This document shows positions 2,926 through 4,879 of a stretch of 29,852 bases of DNA, piece after piece (positions within the stretch are counted from its first letter, which is position 1; each line of letters opens with the position of its first letter). A program made the position numbers and the translations under genes. Location: contig DASSAF010000286.1 in assembly GCA_035685565.1 (NCBI GenBank), forward strand, positions 1 through 29,852, written 5' to 3'. The DNA comes from Nitrosopumilaceae archaeon. GTDB taxonomy: Archaea > Thermoproteota > Nitrososphaeria > Nitrososphaerales > Nitrosopumilaceae. Below the pieces are notes generated by a model that searched no databases, was not told the origin of the DNA, and saw only the letters and a program-made list of their open reading frames with translations.

Positions 2926-2943
2926 CAAAAATTAATTAAAAAA
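2926..2943 (-). terminator. U-rich archaeal terminator candidate for the 2951..3622 gene
   Basis: Minus strand reads ttttttaattaatttttg just after the stop codon, in a 40-bp convergent gap. Confidence 0.45.
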
Positions 2944-2950
2944 TTGGGGT

Positions 2951-3622
2951 TTATGCATTTCTATTCAACTTTCCATCTTTGTTGAATAAATTCTGGATTT
3001 TTGTATTTGCAAGATTGTATTTGACGTTCAAGTTCTTGTTGATACTTACCAGTTGGTCTTTGTGGACTGCAGCTGCATTATTGTATGCCTGCAAAGCTTC
3101 TTGCATAGTACCACCATTTTTAAGCACTTGATTCATTGCGTTTCTTGCATTCTGGATCTTTTGTTGCATGAAATTAAATTGATCCCAGAAAAGATTCTGT
3201 GTAGAGTTGTTCACATGTGTTACAAAGCTGGCATATGCATTTTTTGGAGCAGTCAGATCATTTCCATTATTCATACTGGCAAGATCATTTTGTAAATATG
3301 CATTTGCAATTTTACGTTGTTGCTCTATGAACTGGTTTTGCTGATCTACTATCTGTTGTTTTTGTTGCATTGCAGCGTATCTTTGCTTGAATAATTCTAT
3401 GTTTTCAAGAATTTTCATTTCTGTGGGATTGTTCTTTATTGCATCTGTAGCTAATATTGTATTGGTTTTACTAGCTCCAGTATCAGCCCAAGCAAAACCA
3501 AAATTTGTTACAACTATTAGCACTGCAAAAATACTTGCAAAAACACATAGTTGACTTCTCTTATTCATTTTCTTACCTTTGTCGTTAGTTTGCATTTCTC
3601 TATTTTCTATGGTTCCAATCAT
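2951..3622 (-). CDS. Secreted Q/N-rich helical protein of unknown function (thaumarchaeal-type hypothetical)
   Basis: 223-aa ORF; hydrophobic signal region LCVFASIFAVLIVVTNFGFAWA; coiled-coil-like QQKQQ..EQQRKIA. ATG at 3622 has GAGGTGA 7 nt upstream; ATG at 3568 is an alternative start. Confidence 0.85.
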   Translation of the reverse strand: MIGTIENREMQTNDKGKKMNKRSQLCVFASIFAVLIVVTNFGFAWADTGASKTNTILATDAIKNNPTEMKILENIELFKQRYAAMQQKQQIVDQQNQFIEQQRKIANAYLQNDLASMNNGNDLTAPKNAYASFVTHVNNSTQNLFWDQFNFMQQKIQNARNAMNQVLKNGGTMQEALQAYNNAAAVHKDQLVSINKNLNVKYNLANTKIQNLFNKDGKLNRNA

Positions 3623-3629
3623 TTTATTT

Positions 3630-3636
3630 TCACCTC
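3630..3636 (-). promoter_or_regulatory. Shine-Dalgarno GAGGTGA for the 2951..3622 gene
   Basis: Plus strand tcacctc at 3630-3636; archaeal SD consensus with a 7-nt spacer to ATG 3622. Confidence 0.7.
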
Positions 3637-3645
3637 ACTGGTTTC

Positions 3646-3698
3646 TCCCGACAACAAACAACGTTGTTTCGTCCGAGTTTCACGGACTCATCAGGGGA
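3646..3698 (-). ncRNA. Hammerhead ribozyme, type I topology (stem I open)
   Basis: Minus strand UCCC-CUGAUGA-GUCCG-ugaaacu-CGGAC-GAA-ACAAC-guuguuu-GUUGU-C-GGGA: complete core CUGAUGA/GAAA/GUC, 4-bp stem I, 5-bp stem II, 5-bp stem III; predicted cut between 3650 and 3649. Confidence 0.9.
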
Positions 3699-3718
3699 TT
3701 TTTTGTATTCTCCTGTTA

Positions 3719-3949
3719 TCATAAGGACCGCAACACTACTTCCAGCACACTTATCAAACCCCTCTTAACATCATCTCGAAGGATTGTACGGATGATTTTT
3801 TGATATTTATTACCACATATTCCAGAATGTGAGAGTAGATGTCTGTTACAAAAGGCACATCCACAAGTTACACATAGTTTTGTACAGTTCTGTGAACATG
3901 TGTCGCATTGCGATTTCTCAATGCGTTCAATTGTTGGTATTGATGTCAT
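3719..3949 (-). CDS. Small Cys/His-rich zinc-finger protein, 76 aa (B-box/AN1/HIT-like spacing)
   Basis: MTSIPTIERIEKSQCDTCSQNCTKLCVTCGCAFCNRHLLSHSGICGNK..: CxxC-x7-CxxC-x4-CxxH-x3-H-x3-C. Start moved from 4051 to ATG 3949 because a TATA-like tttataat lies about 20 nt upstream. Confidence 0.7.
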   Translation of the reverse strand: MTSIPTIERIEKSQCDTCSQNCTKLCVTCGCAFCNRHLLSHSGICGNKYQKIIRTILRDDVKRGLISVLEVVLRSL

Positions 3950-3968
3950 GGGCACACTTAGCTGAAAA

Positions 3969-3976
3969 ATTATAAA
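3969..3976 (-). promoter_or_regulatory. TATA box candidate (TTTATAAT) for a leaderless zinc-finger transcript
   Basis: Plus attataaa at 3969-3976, 20 nt upstream of ATG 3949; spacing is compatible with an archaeal leaderless mRNA. Confidence 0.5.
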
Positions 3977-3989
3977 TCCATTAGAACAC

Positions 3990-4075
3990 TTTTTGCAACA
4001 AAAAATCCAGAAATTGTACTTTTGTGAGTAAAATGTAGTGCGTAAAAACACCAGTTCAACATTTTTGCAACAAAA
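3990..4075. promoter_or_regulatory. Two palindromic operator-like boxes TTTTG-CAA-CAAAA (3991-4003, 4063-4075)
   Basis: Identical 14-mer tttttgcaacaaaa at 3990-4003 and 4062-4075, 72 bp apart, in the divergent gap beside an Lrp-family gene. Confidence 0.6.
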
Positions 4076-4111: not shown

Positions 4112-4879
4112 ATGAGTATGGTGGGTAGGAATACAGATAGTCCTGACAATGTAGTACCTGTGAAAAACATGACCAAGAACGGGATAGGTCCTCTTGATTT
4201 ACTTATTCTTCATGTATTACAAAGTGGTGCGACTCCTGATACAGCAAACAAGGATCTTGAAAAATACGGCTACGTTCTTTCACGTGATAATGTTAAAAAT
4301 AGAGTAGACGAACTCATAAAAAAAGGTGTTATTTTAGAACACAACAACAAAGAAGACAGTAAGAAAGATGACAAAATAAAGTGGATTCTAATAGATCCAA
4401 GCAAATTATTTGATAATCAATGGTATACTTTCATAAAATCACAGAATCCGCTTTTTGAACGAAGAGTAATTCCGTATTCTGAGATGTATAGTAATTTAGT
4501 TGAAATAAGTAGAGAATACGATATAGTGACAGCAATAGACCTTGTTCAGGGAGAAGGTCAAAACTATGATTTCATCTTAAGAATTGCTACAAATGAGCTA
4601 ACTCTTTTTGAAGAATTTATAGAAAAAATCAGGTCCCTTGGATGGGTTCATTCGGTTGATAGTAAACCCATTCACGTACTTGAAGGTGTAGGGCTATCCA
4701 AAAATAATCTAACCAAAGTGCGCACAAACTATTTTTATGAACCGATAAAACTTCCTGACTTTGAAACATATTTGAAGAGTATAAAACAAGTATTTCGTAC
4801 TTATGACACTTACATAAAAGAAGAAGGTTCCTCAAAACAAAAAATTGCTAGAAAAAAAGAAGATGATGATATTGCTTGA
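4112..4879 (+). CDS. Lrp/AsnC family transcriptional regulator (wHTH + RAM-like domain)
   Basis: LDLLILHVLQ..LSRDNVKNRVDELIKKGVI HTH; RAM-like VTAIDLVQGEGQNYDFILRI..FIEKIRSLGWV. Confidence 0.75.
   Translation: MSMVGRNTDSPDNVVPVKNMTKNGIGPLDLLILHVLQSGATPDTANKDLEKYGYVLSRDNVKNRVDELIKKGVILEHNNKEDSKKDDKIKWILIDPSKLFDNQWYTFIKSQNPLFERRVIPYSEMYSNLVEISREYDIVTAIDLVQGEGQNYDFILRIATNELTLFEEFIEKIRSLGWVHSVDSKPIHVLEGVGLSKNNLTKVRTNYFYEPIKLPDFETYLKSIKQVFRTYDTYIKEEGSSKQKIARKKEDDDIA

What the first reader, a model, noticed from the sequence alone, without database searches (positions are those of the whole stretch)
2951..3976. Candidate ribozyme-processed operon: Zn-finger ORF, hammerhead, SD, secreted protein
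Seen, on the minus strand: TATA (3969-3976), Zn-finger ORF (3949-3719), 20-nt gap, hammerhead (3698-3646), GAGGTGA (3636-3630), ATG 3622, U-rich terminator. No obvious TATA lies between the ribozyme and the SD. Established: hammerhead cleavage gives a 2',3'-cyclic phosphate and a 5'-OH. Inference: a bicistronic RNA self-cleaves into a Zn-finger mRNA and a 5'-OH mRNA with a 27-nt SD-containing leader (3649-3623), uncoupling stability or translation of the two genes without a protein nuclease. I know of no described archaeal system like this; the Zn finger might bind or modulate the RNA.
Basis: partly seen in the sequence, partly recalled or inferred. Interest (0 to 1): 0.85.

Follow-up and report, generated by a model that had tools for sequence, protein, structure and literature searches.

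The report
Conserved hammerhead ribozyme inside archaeal operon
A genuine self-cutting hammerhead RNA sits between a small zinc-finger gene and a secreted-protein gene in soil and groundwater ammonia-oxidising archaea, and probably cuts their shared message in two; this is a new example of a known ribozyme arrangement, not a new kind of system.

Summary
Minus strand 3698-3646 carries a complete type I hammerhead, with the predicted cut between C3650 and G3649.

One such motif per 1.5 Mb genome is roughly what chance gives (2 found, 0.75 expected), and Rfam scores it below threshold (22.6 bits against 34). The case rests on conservation.
- **Co-occurrence:** the zinc-finger ORF, the hammerhead and the SD-led secreted protein occur together in the same 15 of 151 Nitrosopumilaceae genomes, in two genera, and in 16 metagenome contigs.
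- **Variation:** changes fall where hammerheads tolerate them: N7 is U/C/A, H17 is C/A, loop III varies in length, and two stem II pairs change compensatorily.
- **Promoter:** an invariant TATA box drives an apparently leaderless zinc-finger gene. I found no A/T-only box and no oligo-T run before the ribozyme.

Cleavage and co-transcription remain unproven. Metatranscriptome contigs cover only the secreted gene.

The ribozyme belongs to a large, mostly virus-borne subclass. It has the same stem II module and a short stem I, and usually sits just upstream of an SD and start codon. Archaeal precedents exist in Perreault 2011. This scan already reported a conserved intergenic type I hammerhead in Nitrosotalea, possibly the same element.

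Verdict: a real new member of a known kind, of moderate interest.

The parts
3969..3976 (-). TATA box (TTTATAAT) of the operon promoter, 19 nt before the zinc-finger ATG; implies a leaderless or near-leaderless first cistron
   Evidence: Read. The surrounding GATT(T/A)ATAATTT(C/T)T is kept in all 15 genomes of both genera at the same distance from the ATG. The leaderless start is inferred from the usual archaeal TATA-to-start spacing.
3719..3949 (-). 76-aa zinc-finger ORF (cross-brace pattern CxxC-x7-CxxC-x4-CxxH-x3-H-x3-C plus a C-terminal helix), stop TGA at 3721-3719
   Evidence: ORF. In 15 orthologues C15, C18, C22, C26, C29, C34, H37, H41 and C45 are invariant. No Pfam or NCBIfam family fits. 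Only weak AN1 and ZnF-UBP likeness appears. JGI names it a 'UBP type Zn finger protein'.
3699..3718 (-). Intercistronic spacer between the zinc-finger stop codon and the ribozyme; A-rich, with invariant AA directly 5' of stem I
   Evidence: Spacers are 10 to 27 nt in the 15 genomes (11 to 28 nt from the last base of the stop codon to the first base of the ribozyme), with no T5 run. AA before UCCC is invariant.
3646..3698 (-). Type I hammerhead ribozyme; predicted cleavage between C3650 and G3649
   Evidence: Anatomy read. Hammerhead_1 scores 22.6 bits, E = 0.0034. The element is conserved in 15 genomes. 99% of pair cells are paired, with 2 compensatory stem II pairs.
3623..3649 (-). Predicted 27-nt leader of the 3' cleavage product (5'-OH), containing SD GAGGUGA at 3636-3630
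   Evidence: The SD begins 8 to 10 nt after stem I in all 13 units measured, and GGAGGUGA-like SDs occur in all units.
2951..3622 (-). 223-aa protein with an N-terminal hydrophobic signal-like segment ending FGFAWA/DTG, then a Q-rich, probably helical body; secreted or surface protein of unknown function
   Evidence: ORF. No family fits. Orthologues (52-96% identity) occur only where the ribozyme occurs. Paralogues lacking both ribozyme and zinc-finger ORF occur in many of the 107 of 151 genomes that match. The gene is covered by two metatranscriptome assemblies.
2927..2943 (-). Oligo-T runs (T6 at 2943-2938, T5 at 2931-2927) just after the stop codon: probable archaeal terminator of the operon
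   Evidence: Read. The terminator role is inferred from the known oligo-T termination signal of archaeal RNA polymerase.

Best explanation
A two-gene operon of Nitrosopumilaceae carries a self-cleaving type I hammerhead ribozyme in its intercistronic spacer.

**Proposed sequence of events**
1. Transcription starts about 20 nt downstream of the invariant TATA box, so the zinc-finger cistron is leaderless.
2. Transcription runs through the ribozyme and the secreted-protein gene to the oligo-T runs.
3. Once stems II and III and the 4-bp stem I form, the RNA cuts itself after C3650.
4. The zinc-finger mRNA keeps the ribozyme as a structured 3' end carrying a 2',3'-cyclic phosphate.
5. The secreted-protein mRNA is released with a 5'-OH and a fixed 27-nt leader holding a strong SD.

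The two messages can then differ in stability and translation. This resembles a natural counterpart of the ribozyme insulators used in synthetic biology.

**What is shown:** the ribozyme motif, its conservation, the fixed gene order and the promoter conservation.

**What is inferred:** cleavage in vivo, co-transcription, and the consequences of the new RNA ends.

The ribozyme belongs to a widespread, mostly virus-borne subclass of type I hammerheads that usually lies immediately upstream of ribosome-binding sites.
For: **Motif.** All core positions and three Watson-Crick helices are present. They meet the acceptance rules quoted from Perreault 2011.

**Pattern of variation.**
- The free core position N7 is U, C or A.
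- The cleavage nucleotide is C or A, never G.
- Loop III ranges from 2 to 7 nt.
- Stem II pairs 10.3/11.3 and 10.4/11.4 switch C-G to U-A.
- Every other core base is invariant.

**Distribution.** The ribozyme, the zinc-finger ORF and the orthologous secreted protein are found in the same 15 of 151 family genomes. The order is always zinc-finger ORF, hammerhead, SD, secreted ORF. The same order appears in the metagenome contigs long enough to show both flanks.

**Transcription signals.** The promoter is conserved only upstream of the zinc-finger ORF. No A/T-only TATA-like box lies before the ribozyme. Spacers are only 10 to 27 nt and hold no T5 run.

**Not a mobile element.** The divergent Lrp-like gene is the upstream neighbour in both genera.

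**RNA.** Two metatranscriptomes cover the secreted gene (depth 8-20 and 3) but not the ribozyme or the zinc-finger ORF.

**Subclass.** Of 138 distinct sequences sharing the stem II module, 116 fold as type I with a 3 to 7 bp stem I. Of those, 88 have an SD-like motif within 35 nt and 79 also have a start codon. Some viral contigs carry 4 or 5 copies between genes.
Against: - No RNA end was mapped, and no read or contig spans or ends at 3650/3649.
- Stem I is only 4 bp, and no loop-loop or pseudoknot contact could be identified. Activity at cellular Mg2+ is therefore assumed, not shown.
- Stems I and III never vary within the unit, so they carry no covariation there.
- The Rfam score is below threshold.
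- A weak promoter inside the end of the zinc-finger ORF cannot be excluded from sequence.
- Predicted SD accessibility does not change on cleavage, so no translational switch is evident.
Confidence: 0.62

Rival explanations
1. The ribozyme is real, but it sits at the 5' end of a separate transcript started from a weak promoter inside the last codons of the zinc-finger ORF. It would trim a short triphosphate leader off a monocistronic secreted-protein mRNA. No bicistronic RNA would exist, and the two genes would be linked only by position.
For: - Metatranscriptome contigs cover the secreted gene but not the zinc-finger ORF.
- The region is AT-rich, and partial TATA-like strings (for example TTATGATAA at 3724-3716) lie about 20 to 30 nt before the ribozyme.
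- Perreault 2011 describes a halovirus hammerhead ahead of the first ORF of a transcript.
Against: - No A/T-only TATA-like 8-mer lies within 62 nt upstream in any of 30 sequences, and no motif there is shared between the genera.
- The zinc-finger promoter, by contrast, is invariant.
- Spacers are as short as 10 nt and lack a terminator.
- The zinc-finger ORF and the ribozyme co-occur strictly.
- An SD-led gene behind a leaderless one is the usual archaeal operon layout (general knowledge).
Confidence: 0.2
2. The conserved fold is not catalytic in vivo. It would serve as a structured binding site or translational operator, perhaps for the zinc-finger protein, and resemble a hammerhead through descent from a viral ribozyme.
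For: - Stem I is only 4 bp and no tertiary contact was found.
- Stems I and III and loop II are unusually invariant within the unit.
- Gene linkage with a small zinc-finger protein is strict.
Against: - Every catalytic core base is invariant across 31 sequences.
- The only positions that change are the ones catalysis tolerates: N7, H17 as C/A, and the loops. That pattern is what selection for cleavage predicts.
- The zinc finger matches no known RNA-binding family.
Confidence: 0.06
3. The motif is a chance match to the hammerhead consensus in an AT-rich intergenic spacer.
For: A lenient descriptor finds about 0.75 hits per shuffled genome of this size. The Rfam score is below the gathering threshold.
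Against: - The element is conserved across two genera and a third metagenomic clade while its flanks diverge. In G019 and G006 only the ribozyme-to-start-codon segment still aligns.
- Stem II shows compensatory changes.
- More than 100 relatives share the same architecture.
Confidence: 0.01

Closest known systems
Type I hammerhead ribozymes (Rfam RF00163 Hammerhead_1, clan CL00010), including the type I construct labelled Cenarchaeum in Perreault et al. 2011 (PMC3088659, supplement)
   Same: Same catalytic core, three-helix junction and type I topology, with stem I open and stems II and III capped. By my own knowledge Cenarchaeum also belongs to the Nitrosopumilaceae, so a type I hammerhead in this family has a precedent.
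   Different: - The score is below Rfam's gathering threshold (22.6 against 34 bits), as it is for its viral relatives (22-24 bits).
- Stem I is only 4 bp, with an A-rich 5' flank instead of the long stem I with an internal loop seen in the classic eukaryotic type I examples.
- The Cenarchaeum sequence is unrelated outside the core.
- The paper gives no gene context or function for the archaeal cases in the parts I read.
Hammerheads between genes of phage and prophage operons, and the halovirus HF1/HF2 hammerhead 13 nt upstream of a helicase start codon (Perreault et al. 2011, PMC3088659)
   Same: The ribozyme lies in an intergenic spacer, sense to both neighbours, just ahead of the next gene's translation signals. 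The proposed role is to cut a polycistronic RNA into shorter mRNAs. The window's ribozyme shares its stem II module, short stem I and position before an SD and ATG with 116 sequences from metagenome and viral contigs.
   Different: - Here there is a single copy in a vertically kept chromosomal operon of cellular genes, with a conserved neighbour (an Lrp-like regulator) in two genera.
- It is not part of an array in a mobile element.
- The upstream cistron appears leaderless and the downstream one SD-led, which is an archaeal twist.
This scan's earlier finding e1-2586094: conserved intergenic type I hammerhead in Nitrosotalea
   Same: A type I hammerhead between two small co-oriented genes of an ammonia-oxidising archaeon, kept in every related genome examined, and sharing short words with this stretch. 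It may be the same unit as the one I found in the second genus (g10).
   Different: I could not see that finding's sequence or confirm that genus g10 is Nitrosotalea. The present window is a different genus, known only from soil and groundwater MAGs.
Synthetic ribozyme insulators such as RiboJ (from my own knowledge, not checked here)
   Same: A hammerhead placed between upstream RNA and a ribosome-binding site cuts away the upstream context and leaves a fixed 5'-OH leader.
   Different: Those are engineered parts. The natural element lacks the added hairpin of RiboJ, and its effect on expression is untested.

Membership tests
Hammerhead ribozyme (type I) | Conserved core: C3 U4 G5 A6 N7 G8 A9, G12 A13 A14, A15.1-U16.1, H17 (not G) | tested here: met
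   CUGAUGA at 3694-3688, GAA at 3670-3668, A3667 pairing with U3651, and C3650. All are invariant in 15 genomes except N7 (U/C/A) and H17 (C or A).
Hammerhead ribozyme (type I) | Three helices around the core, with standard pairs next to the core (1.1-2.1, 10.1-11.1, 15.1-16.1); stem I open, stems II and III closed by loops | tested here: met
   Stems of 4, 5 (plus one extra G:Y pair) and 5 bp. 99% of 209 pair cells form standard pairs, against 33-48% when the partners are slid.
Hammerhead ribozyme (type I) | Helices supported by compensatory change | tested here: inconclusive
   Two stem II pairs show double changes in three sequences, and further cases occur in metagenome contigs L139 and L179. 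Stems I and III never vary within the unit. They vary freely among the 116 subclass relatives, but those were selected with a descriptor that requires pairing.
Hammerhead ribozyme (type I) | Reaches Rfam's curated gathering score for a hammerhead family | tested here: not met
   No hit at gathering threshold. Hammerhead_1 scores 22.6 against 34 bits, and RAGATH-1 hammerhead 24.4 against 56.3. Two subclass copies in viral contig L232 score 22.9 and 24.4 bits on Hammerhead_1, and none of eight subclass loci reaches a gathering score, so the model under-detects this subclass.
Hammerhead ribozyme (type I) | Tertiary contact between stems I and II (loop-loop or pseudoknot) needed for fast cleavage at cellular Mg2+ | tested here: inconclusive
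   No complementary partner for loop II was found by eye in the flanks. The invariant loop II bases (U21, G22, A23, A25) and the invariant AA 5' of the short stem I hint at a contact, as do the A-rich 5' flanks in the subclass. None is demonstrated.
Hammerhead ribozyme (type I) | Site-specific self-cleavage giving a 2',3'-cyclic phosphate and a 5'-OH | not testable with these tools
   Only assembled contigs of public runs were available, and none ends at or spans 3650/3649.
Intercistronic hammerheads of phage and prophage operons (Perreault 2011) | Ribozyme in the spacer between co-oriented genes of one transcription unit | tested here: inconclusive
   Position and orientation are met. A single transcription unit is suggested by the promoter and terminator layout but is not shown by RNA data.
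Intercistronic hammerheads of phage and prophage operons (Perreault 2011) | Several ribozymes flanking genes within a phage, prophage or other mobile element | tested here: not met
   There is one copy per genome. The neighbours are cellular genes with synteny kept across two genera. No match of the model lies elsewhere in the window's genome.
AN1 / ZnF-UBP / HIT-type cross-brace zinc fingers (for the 76-aa ORF) | Eight Cys/His ligands in cross-brace spacing, and a significant match to the family profile or fold | tested here: inconclusive
   The ligand pattern is present and invariant. Pfam gives only C5HCH at E = 0.53. AN1 chains match at E 0.17-0.6. Foldseek's best E is 0.7, with ZnF-UBP of HDAC6 at 1.3-1.6 A over 40 columns but E above 1.6. 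The model's mean pLDDT is 72.

The most novel reading that the evidence does not exclude
Cleavage may be gated by translation or by the zinc-finger protein.

In 24 of 31 unit sequences, an ATG overlapping the zinc-finger stop codon (ATGA) opens the only frame that is stop-free through the ribozyme. That frame closes in or just after the SD of the secreted gene. Ribosomes finishing the leaderless zinc-finger cistron could therefore re-initiate, melt the ribozyme and deliver themselves to the next start codon.

If so, the choice between a coupled bicistronic message and two separated mRNAs would depend on ribosome traffic, or on the zinc-finger protein binding the RNA. This would be a ribozyme-based switch between coupled and uncoupled expression, which to my knowledge has not been described in any organism.
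Probability: 0.08. Interest if true: 0.8.

Novelty: new member of a known kind. Interest (0 to 1): 0.48.

Why it matters
What hammerhead ribozymes do in prokaryotes is still largely unknown, because most sit in phages and mobile elements with changing neighbours.

Here one copy is fixed in a simple cellular operon of ammonia-oxidising archaea. It has a defined promoter, a leaderless first gene and an SD-led second gene, and it is conserved across at least two genera. One of those genera includes closed, single-contig genomes, so some carriers may be cultured.

That makes a clean natural test case for whether ribozyme cleavage uncouples the stability or translation of neighbouring cistrons through 5'-OH and cyclic-phosphate ends.

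The work also shows that Rfam's type I model misses this widespread subclass. None of the eight subclass loci tested reached a gathering score.

Tried and rejected
- **SD unmasking by cleavage.** ViennaRNA partition-function estimates of SD accessibility in uncleaved RNA and in the 3' product are essentially equal in 15 genomes. Rejected.
- **Extended stem I or a pseudoknot** with loop II or loop III. The wider alignment and a reading of the flanks showed no conserved complement. Loop III is too variable to be a partner.
- **Chance motif.** Rejected on conservation.
- **Mobile-element or provirus origin of the locus.** The neighbours are cellular and syntenic. The ribozyme subclass itself is mostly viral, so an old viral origin of the ribozyme remains possible.
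- **RNA end mapping from public data.** Only Logan contigs were available. Two runs labelled RNA-Seq look like DNA, so there is no end information.
- **Naming the proteins.**
  - Pfam, NCBIfam and the ESM Atlas gave nothing significant.
  - The PDB profile search and Foldseek did not either.
- **The first own-genome pattern scan** was too loose to be informative.
- **Literature.** Searches pairing hammerhead with Nitrosopumil*, Nitrososphaer* or Thaumarchaeota, and ribozyme with Nitrosotalea, found nothing relevant.
Full report
**1. The observation**

- TTTATAAT at 3976-3969;
- ATG at 3949, opening a 76-aa Cys/His-rich ORF that stops at 3721-3719;
- a 20-nt A-rich spacer;
- a complete hammerhead at 3698-3646;
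- GAGGUGA at 3636-3630;
- ATG at 3622, opening a 223-aa ORF that ends at 2951;
- T6 and T5 runs directly after the stop codon.

The hammerhead reads as follows:

| Element | Sequence | Coordinates |
|---|---|---|
| Stem I, 5' strand | UCCC | 3698-3695 |
| Core | CUGAUGA | 3694-3688 |
| Stem II | GUCCG / CGGAC around loop UGAAACU | 3687-3671 |
| Core | GAA | 3670-3668 |
| Stem III | ACAAC / GUUGU around a 7-nt loop | 3667-3651 |
| Cleavage nucleotide | C17 | 3650 |
| Stem I, 3' strand | GGGA | 3649-3646 |

Stem I is open and stems II and III are capped, so the topology is type I. The predicted cut lies between 3650 and 3649.

**2. Is it more than chance?**

Taken alone, no.
- Rfam gives no hit at gathering thresholds for the whole window.
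- On a 351-nt slice, Hammerhead_1 scores 22.6 bits (gathering 34, E = 0.0034). The RAGATH-1 hammerhead model scores 24.4 bits (gathering 56.3).
- My own lenient type I descriptor finds 2 hits in the 1.52 Mb genome. Order-2 Markov genomes of the same size give 0.75 on average.
- The minimum-free-energy fold is not unusual either, with z = -1.7.

The decision therefore rests on comparative evidence.

**3. Conservation**

*Distribution.* A DNA search of 60 relatives found the 201-nt region in 9 of 10 genomes of the same genus. It also found one genome of another genus. There, and in the most divergent same-genus genome, only the segment from the ribozyme to the start codon still aligns.

A covariance model built from 11 copies then found strong matches (67-91 bits) in 15 of 151 family genomes. 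These are the window's genome, 9 of 10 others in its genus, and 5 of 9 in genus g10.

*Variation in the 15-sequence alignment.*
- Every catalytic base is invariant.
- The one free core position, N7, is U, C or A.
- The cleavage nucleotide is C in most and A in one genome, never G.
- Loop III ranges from 2 to 7 nt.
- Stem II pairs switch from C-G to U-A at two positions, in three sequences.
- A further G:C or G:U pair is possible inside loop II.
- Overall 99% of pair cells are standard pairs, against 33-48% when the partners are slid.

*Metagenomes.* A pattern scan added 16 more copies of the same unit. These bring further stem II compensatory changes (L139, L179) and four more GUA cleavage triplets.

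This pattern is what selection for catalysis predicts. The motif also satisfies the acceptance rules used by Perreault et al. 2011. I regard the hammerhead as genuine.

*Weak points.* Stems I and III never vary within the unit. Stem I has only 4 bp (5 where the 3' flank is U). I could not identify a tertiary contact. The invariant loop II bases and the invariant AA just 5' of stem I are candidates only.

**4. The unit and its transcription signals**

*Co-occurrence.* The zinc-finger ORF is found in the same 15 genomes as the ribozyme, plus two marginal matches elsewhere. Orthologues of the secreted protein (52-96% identity) are also confined to those 15 genomes. More distant paralogues are widespread, matching in 107 of 151 genomes, often in several copies. 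In the 15 paralogue loci I inspected there was neither a zinc-finger ORF nor a ribozyme next to them.

*Order and spacing.* The order is always zinc-finger ORF, ribozyme, SD, secreted ORF.
- The zinc-finger ORF's stop codon ends 11 to 28 nt before the ribozyme's first base (10 to 27 nt between).
- The SD begins 8 to 10 nt after stem I.
- The start codon lies 17 to 27 nt after stem I.

Metagenome copies with enough flank show the same order. This includes a third clade whose zinc finger has His in place of the last Cys.

*Promoter.* Upstream of the zinc-finger ATG, the string GATT(T/A)ATAATTT(C/T)T is kept in all 15 genomes. It lies exactly 19 nt before the ATG, with no SD. This points to a leaderless first cistron. 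A conserved palindrome lies just upstream of it.

By contrast, none of 30 distinct sequences has an A/T-only TATA-like 8-mer within 62 nt upstream of the ribozyme. Nothing there is shared between the genera beyond the coding constraint. The spacers contain no T5 run.

*Neighbourhood.* The divergent Lrp-like gene is the upstream neighbour in both genera. The locus therefore looks like stable chromosome, not a mobile element.

Record titles place the genus among uncultured Nitrosopumilaceae (Thaumarchaeota) MAGs from soil and groundwater.

**5. RNA evidence**

Public runs holding this sequence are soil, sediment and groundwater metagenomes plus a few metatranscriptomes, all available only as assembled contigs.
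- Two metatranscriptomes give contigs on 3163-3610 (depth 8-20) and 3431-3592 (depth 3).
- Both lie inside the secreted-protein gene. Nothing lies on the ribozyme or the zinc-finger ORF.
- Two runs labelled RNA-Seq behave like DNA.

So the secreted gene is expressed, and it is apparently more abundant than the upstream cistron. That agrees with post-cleavage uncoupling but fits an internal promoter equally well. No RNA end could be mapped.

**6. A wider family**

I scanned for the stem II module of this ribozyme: a 5-bp stem plus a GUGARAYY loop between the core strands.

Of 138 distinct sequences:
- 116 fold as complete type I hammerheads;
- stem I is short, 5 bp in 84 and 4 bp in 18;
- the 5' flank is A-rich (AUAA, ACAA, AAAA, UAAA);
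- the cleavage nucleotide is C in 104 and A in 12;
- 88 have an SD-like motif within 35 nt downstream;
- 79 of those also have a start codon.

Some viral contigs carry four or five copies, each in front of a gene (L232, L289).

None of the eight subclass loci I tested reaches an Rfam gathering score. Two copies in L232 score 22.9 and 24.4 bits on Hammerhead_1.

The window's ribozyme is therefore one branch of a large, mainly virus-borne subclass. Its habitual place is just ahead of a ribosome-binding site.

**7. How it most likely works**

*Shown:* the motif, its selective constraint, the fixed gene order and the promoter layout.

*Inferred:*
- one transcript runs from the TATA box at 3976-3969 to the oligo-T runs at 2943-2927;
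- it self-cleaves after C3650;
- this leaves a zinc-finger mRNA ending in the folded ribozyme with a 2',3'-cyclic phosphate;
- it releases a secreted-protein mRNA with a 5'-OH and a 27-nt SD-containing leader.

The chemistry of the ends is established for hammerheads. The idea that such ends slow exonucleases or tailing enzymes in these archaea is my inference. Cleavage does not appear to unmask the SD.

I put about 0.9 on a genuine hammerhead, about 0.75 on cleavage in vivo, and about 0.65 on a bicistronic precursor.

*Rivals:*
- The main rival (0.2) is a weak promoter inside the end of the zinc-finger ORF, which would make the ribozyme a 5'-leader trimmer.
- A non-catalytic operator role (0.06) fits poorly with the catalysis-shaped pattern of variation.

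**8. Comparison with what is known**

Perreault et al. 2011 (PMC3088659) reported:
- at least three archaeal hammerheads;
- a construct for a type I example labelled Cenarchaeum;
- a halovirus hammerhead 13 nt upstream of a start codon, with a transcript 5' end mapped at the cleavage site;
- a proposal that prophage hammerheads cut polycistronic RNAs into gene-length messages.

Full-text searches found no paper linking hammerheads or ribozymes with Nitrosopumilaceae, Nitrososphaeria or Nitrosotalea.

This scan had already noted a conserved intergenic type I hammerhead in Nitrosotalea that shares short words with this stretch. It may correspond to my genus g10, but I could not verify the name.

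The finding is thus a new member of a known kind. What is new is a single, vertically kept copy in a cellular archaeal operon that joins a leaderless cistron to an SD-led one.

**9. The two proteins**

*Zinc-finger protein.* It has nine invariant Cys/His residues in a cross-brace spacing, followed by a long C-terminal helix.
- No Pfam or NCBIfam family fits.
- Profile matches to AN1 fingers are insignificant.
- Fold matches are insignificant too, although ZnF-UBP of HDAC6 superposes at 1.3-1.6 A over 40 residues.
- JGI labels relatives 'UBP type Zn finger protein'.

I found nothing that ties it to RNA binding.

*Secreted protein.* It has a signal-like hydrophobic segment ending FGFAWA/DTG and a Q-rich body. 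No known family fits.

**10. Verdict**

- Novelty: a new member of a known kind.
- Interest is moderate (0.48). This is a clean, conserved, possibly culturable test case for an open question about prokaryotic hammerheads. It is neither unprecedented nor yet shown to cleave.

Noticed in passing
window 3630-3722 (minus strand): A 30-codon ORF starts at an ATG overlapping the zinc-finger stop codon (ATGA). It uses the only frame that is stop-free through the hammerhead and ends at the TGA inside the SD of the secreted gene. The same layout holds in 24 of 31 unit sequences, and the distance from that ATG to the ribozyme is 9, 15, 24 or 27 nt, always a multiple of 3. It may be a by-product of an NNA-TGA ending, or it may let ribosomes run across the ribozyme.
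   Followed up: partly
window 3991-4003 (minus strand), upstream of the TATA box: The palindrome-like TTTTTGTTGCAAAA just upstream of the zinc-finger promoter is conserved in the window's genus. It recurs in variant form in the second genus, at the same distance from the TATA box. It is a likely operator, perhaps for the divergent Lrp-like gene at 4112-4879.
   Followed up: partly
G025:C31, positions about 573, 1838 and 2212 (loci L033, L041): Another Nitrosopumilaceae genus carries three near-identical type I hammerheads of a different kind on one strand within 1.7 kb, with small ORFs between them. Stem I is GCCAUC/GAUGGC and stem II is GUCC-CAAAU-GGAC, resembling the Schistosoma type. The arrangement looks like a phage-type ribozyme array.
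   Followed up: partly
L126:787-1339 (marine metagenome contig; also IMG/VR contig L236): A hammerhead of the same subclass lies about 70 nt downstream of a permuted alphaproteobacterial tmRNA gene on the same strand. This marine group is the most numerous in the viral hits and has an extra hairpin between the ribozyme and the start codon.
   Followed up: no
L232 and L289 (IMG/VR contigs): There are four or five copies of the same hammerhead subclass per contig, each directly ahead of an SD and start codon. In one search one copy scored 35.2 bits on Hammerhead_3 and two scored 22.9 and 24.4 bits on Hammerhead_1, all below gathering. Rfam's models therefore seem to miss this subclass.
   Followed up: partly
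window 2951-3622 and paralogues (for example G000:C190:7967-8464 and G000:C37:3082-3576): The secreted protein belongs to a large family matched in 107 of 151 Nitrosopumilaceae genomes searched, with up to 7 matches in a genome. In some matches the surrounding open frame is far longer, up to about 1200 aa. No public family name was found.
   Followed up: no
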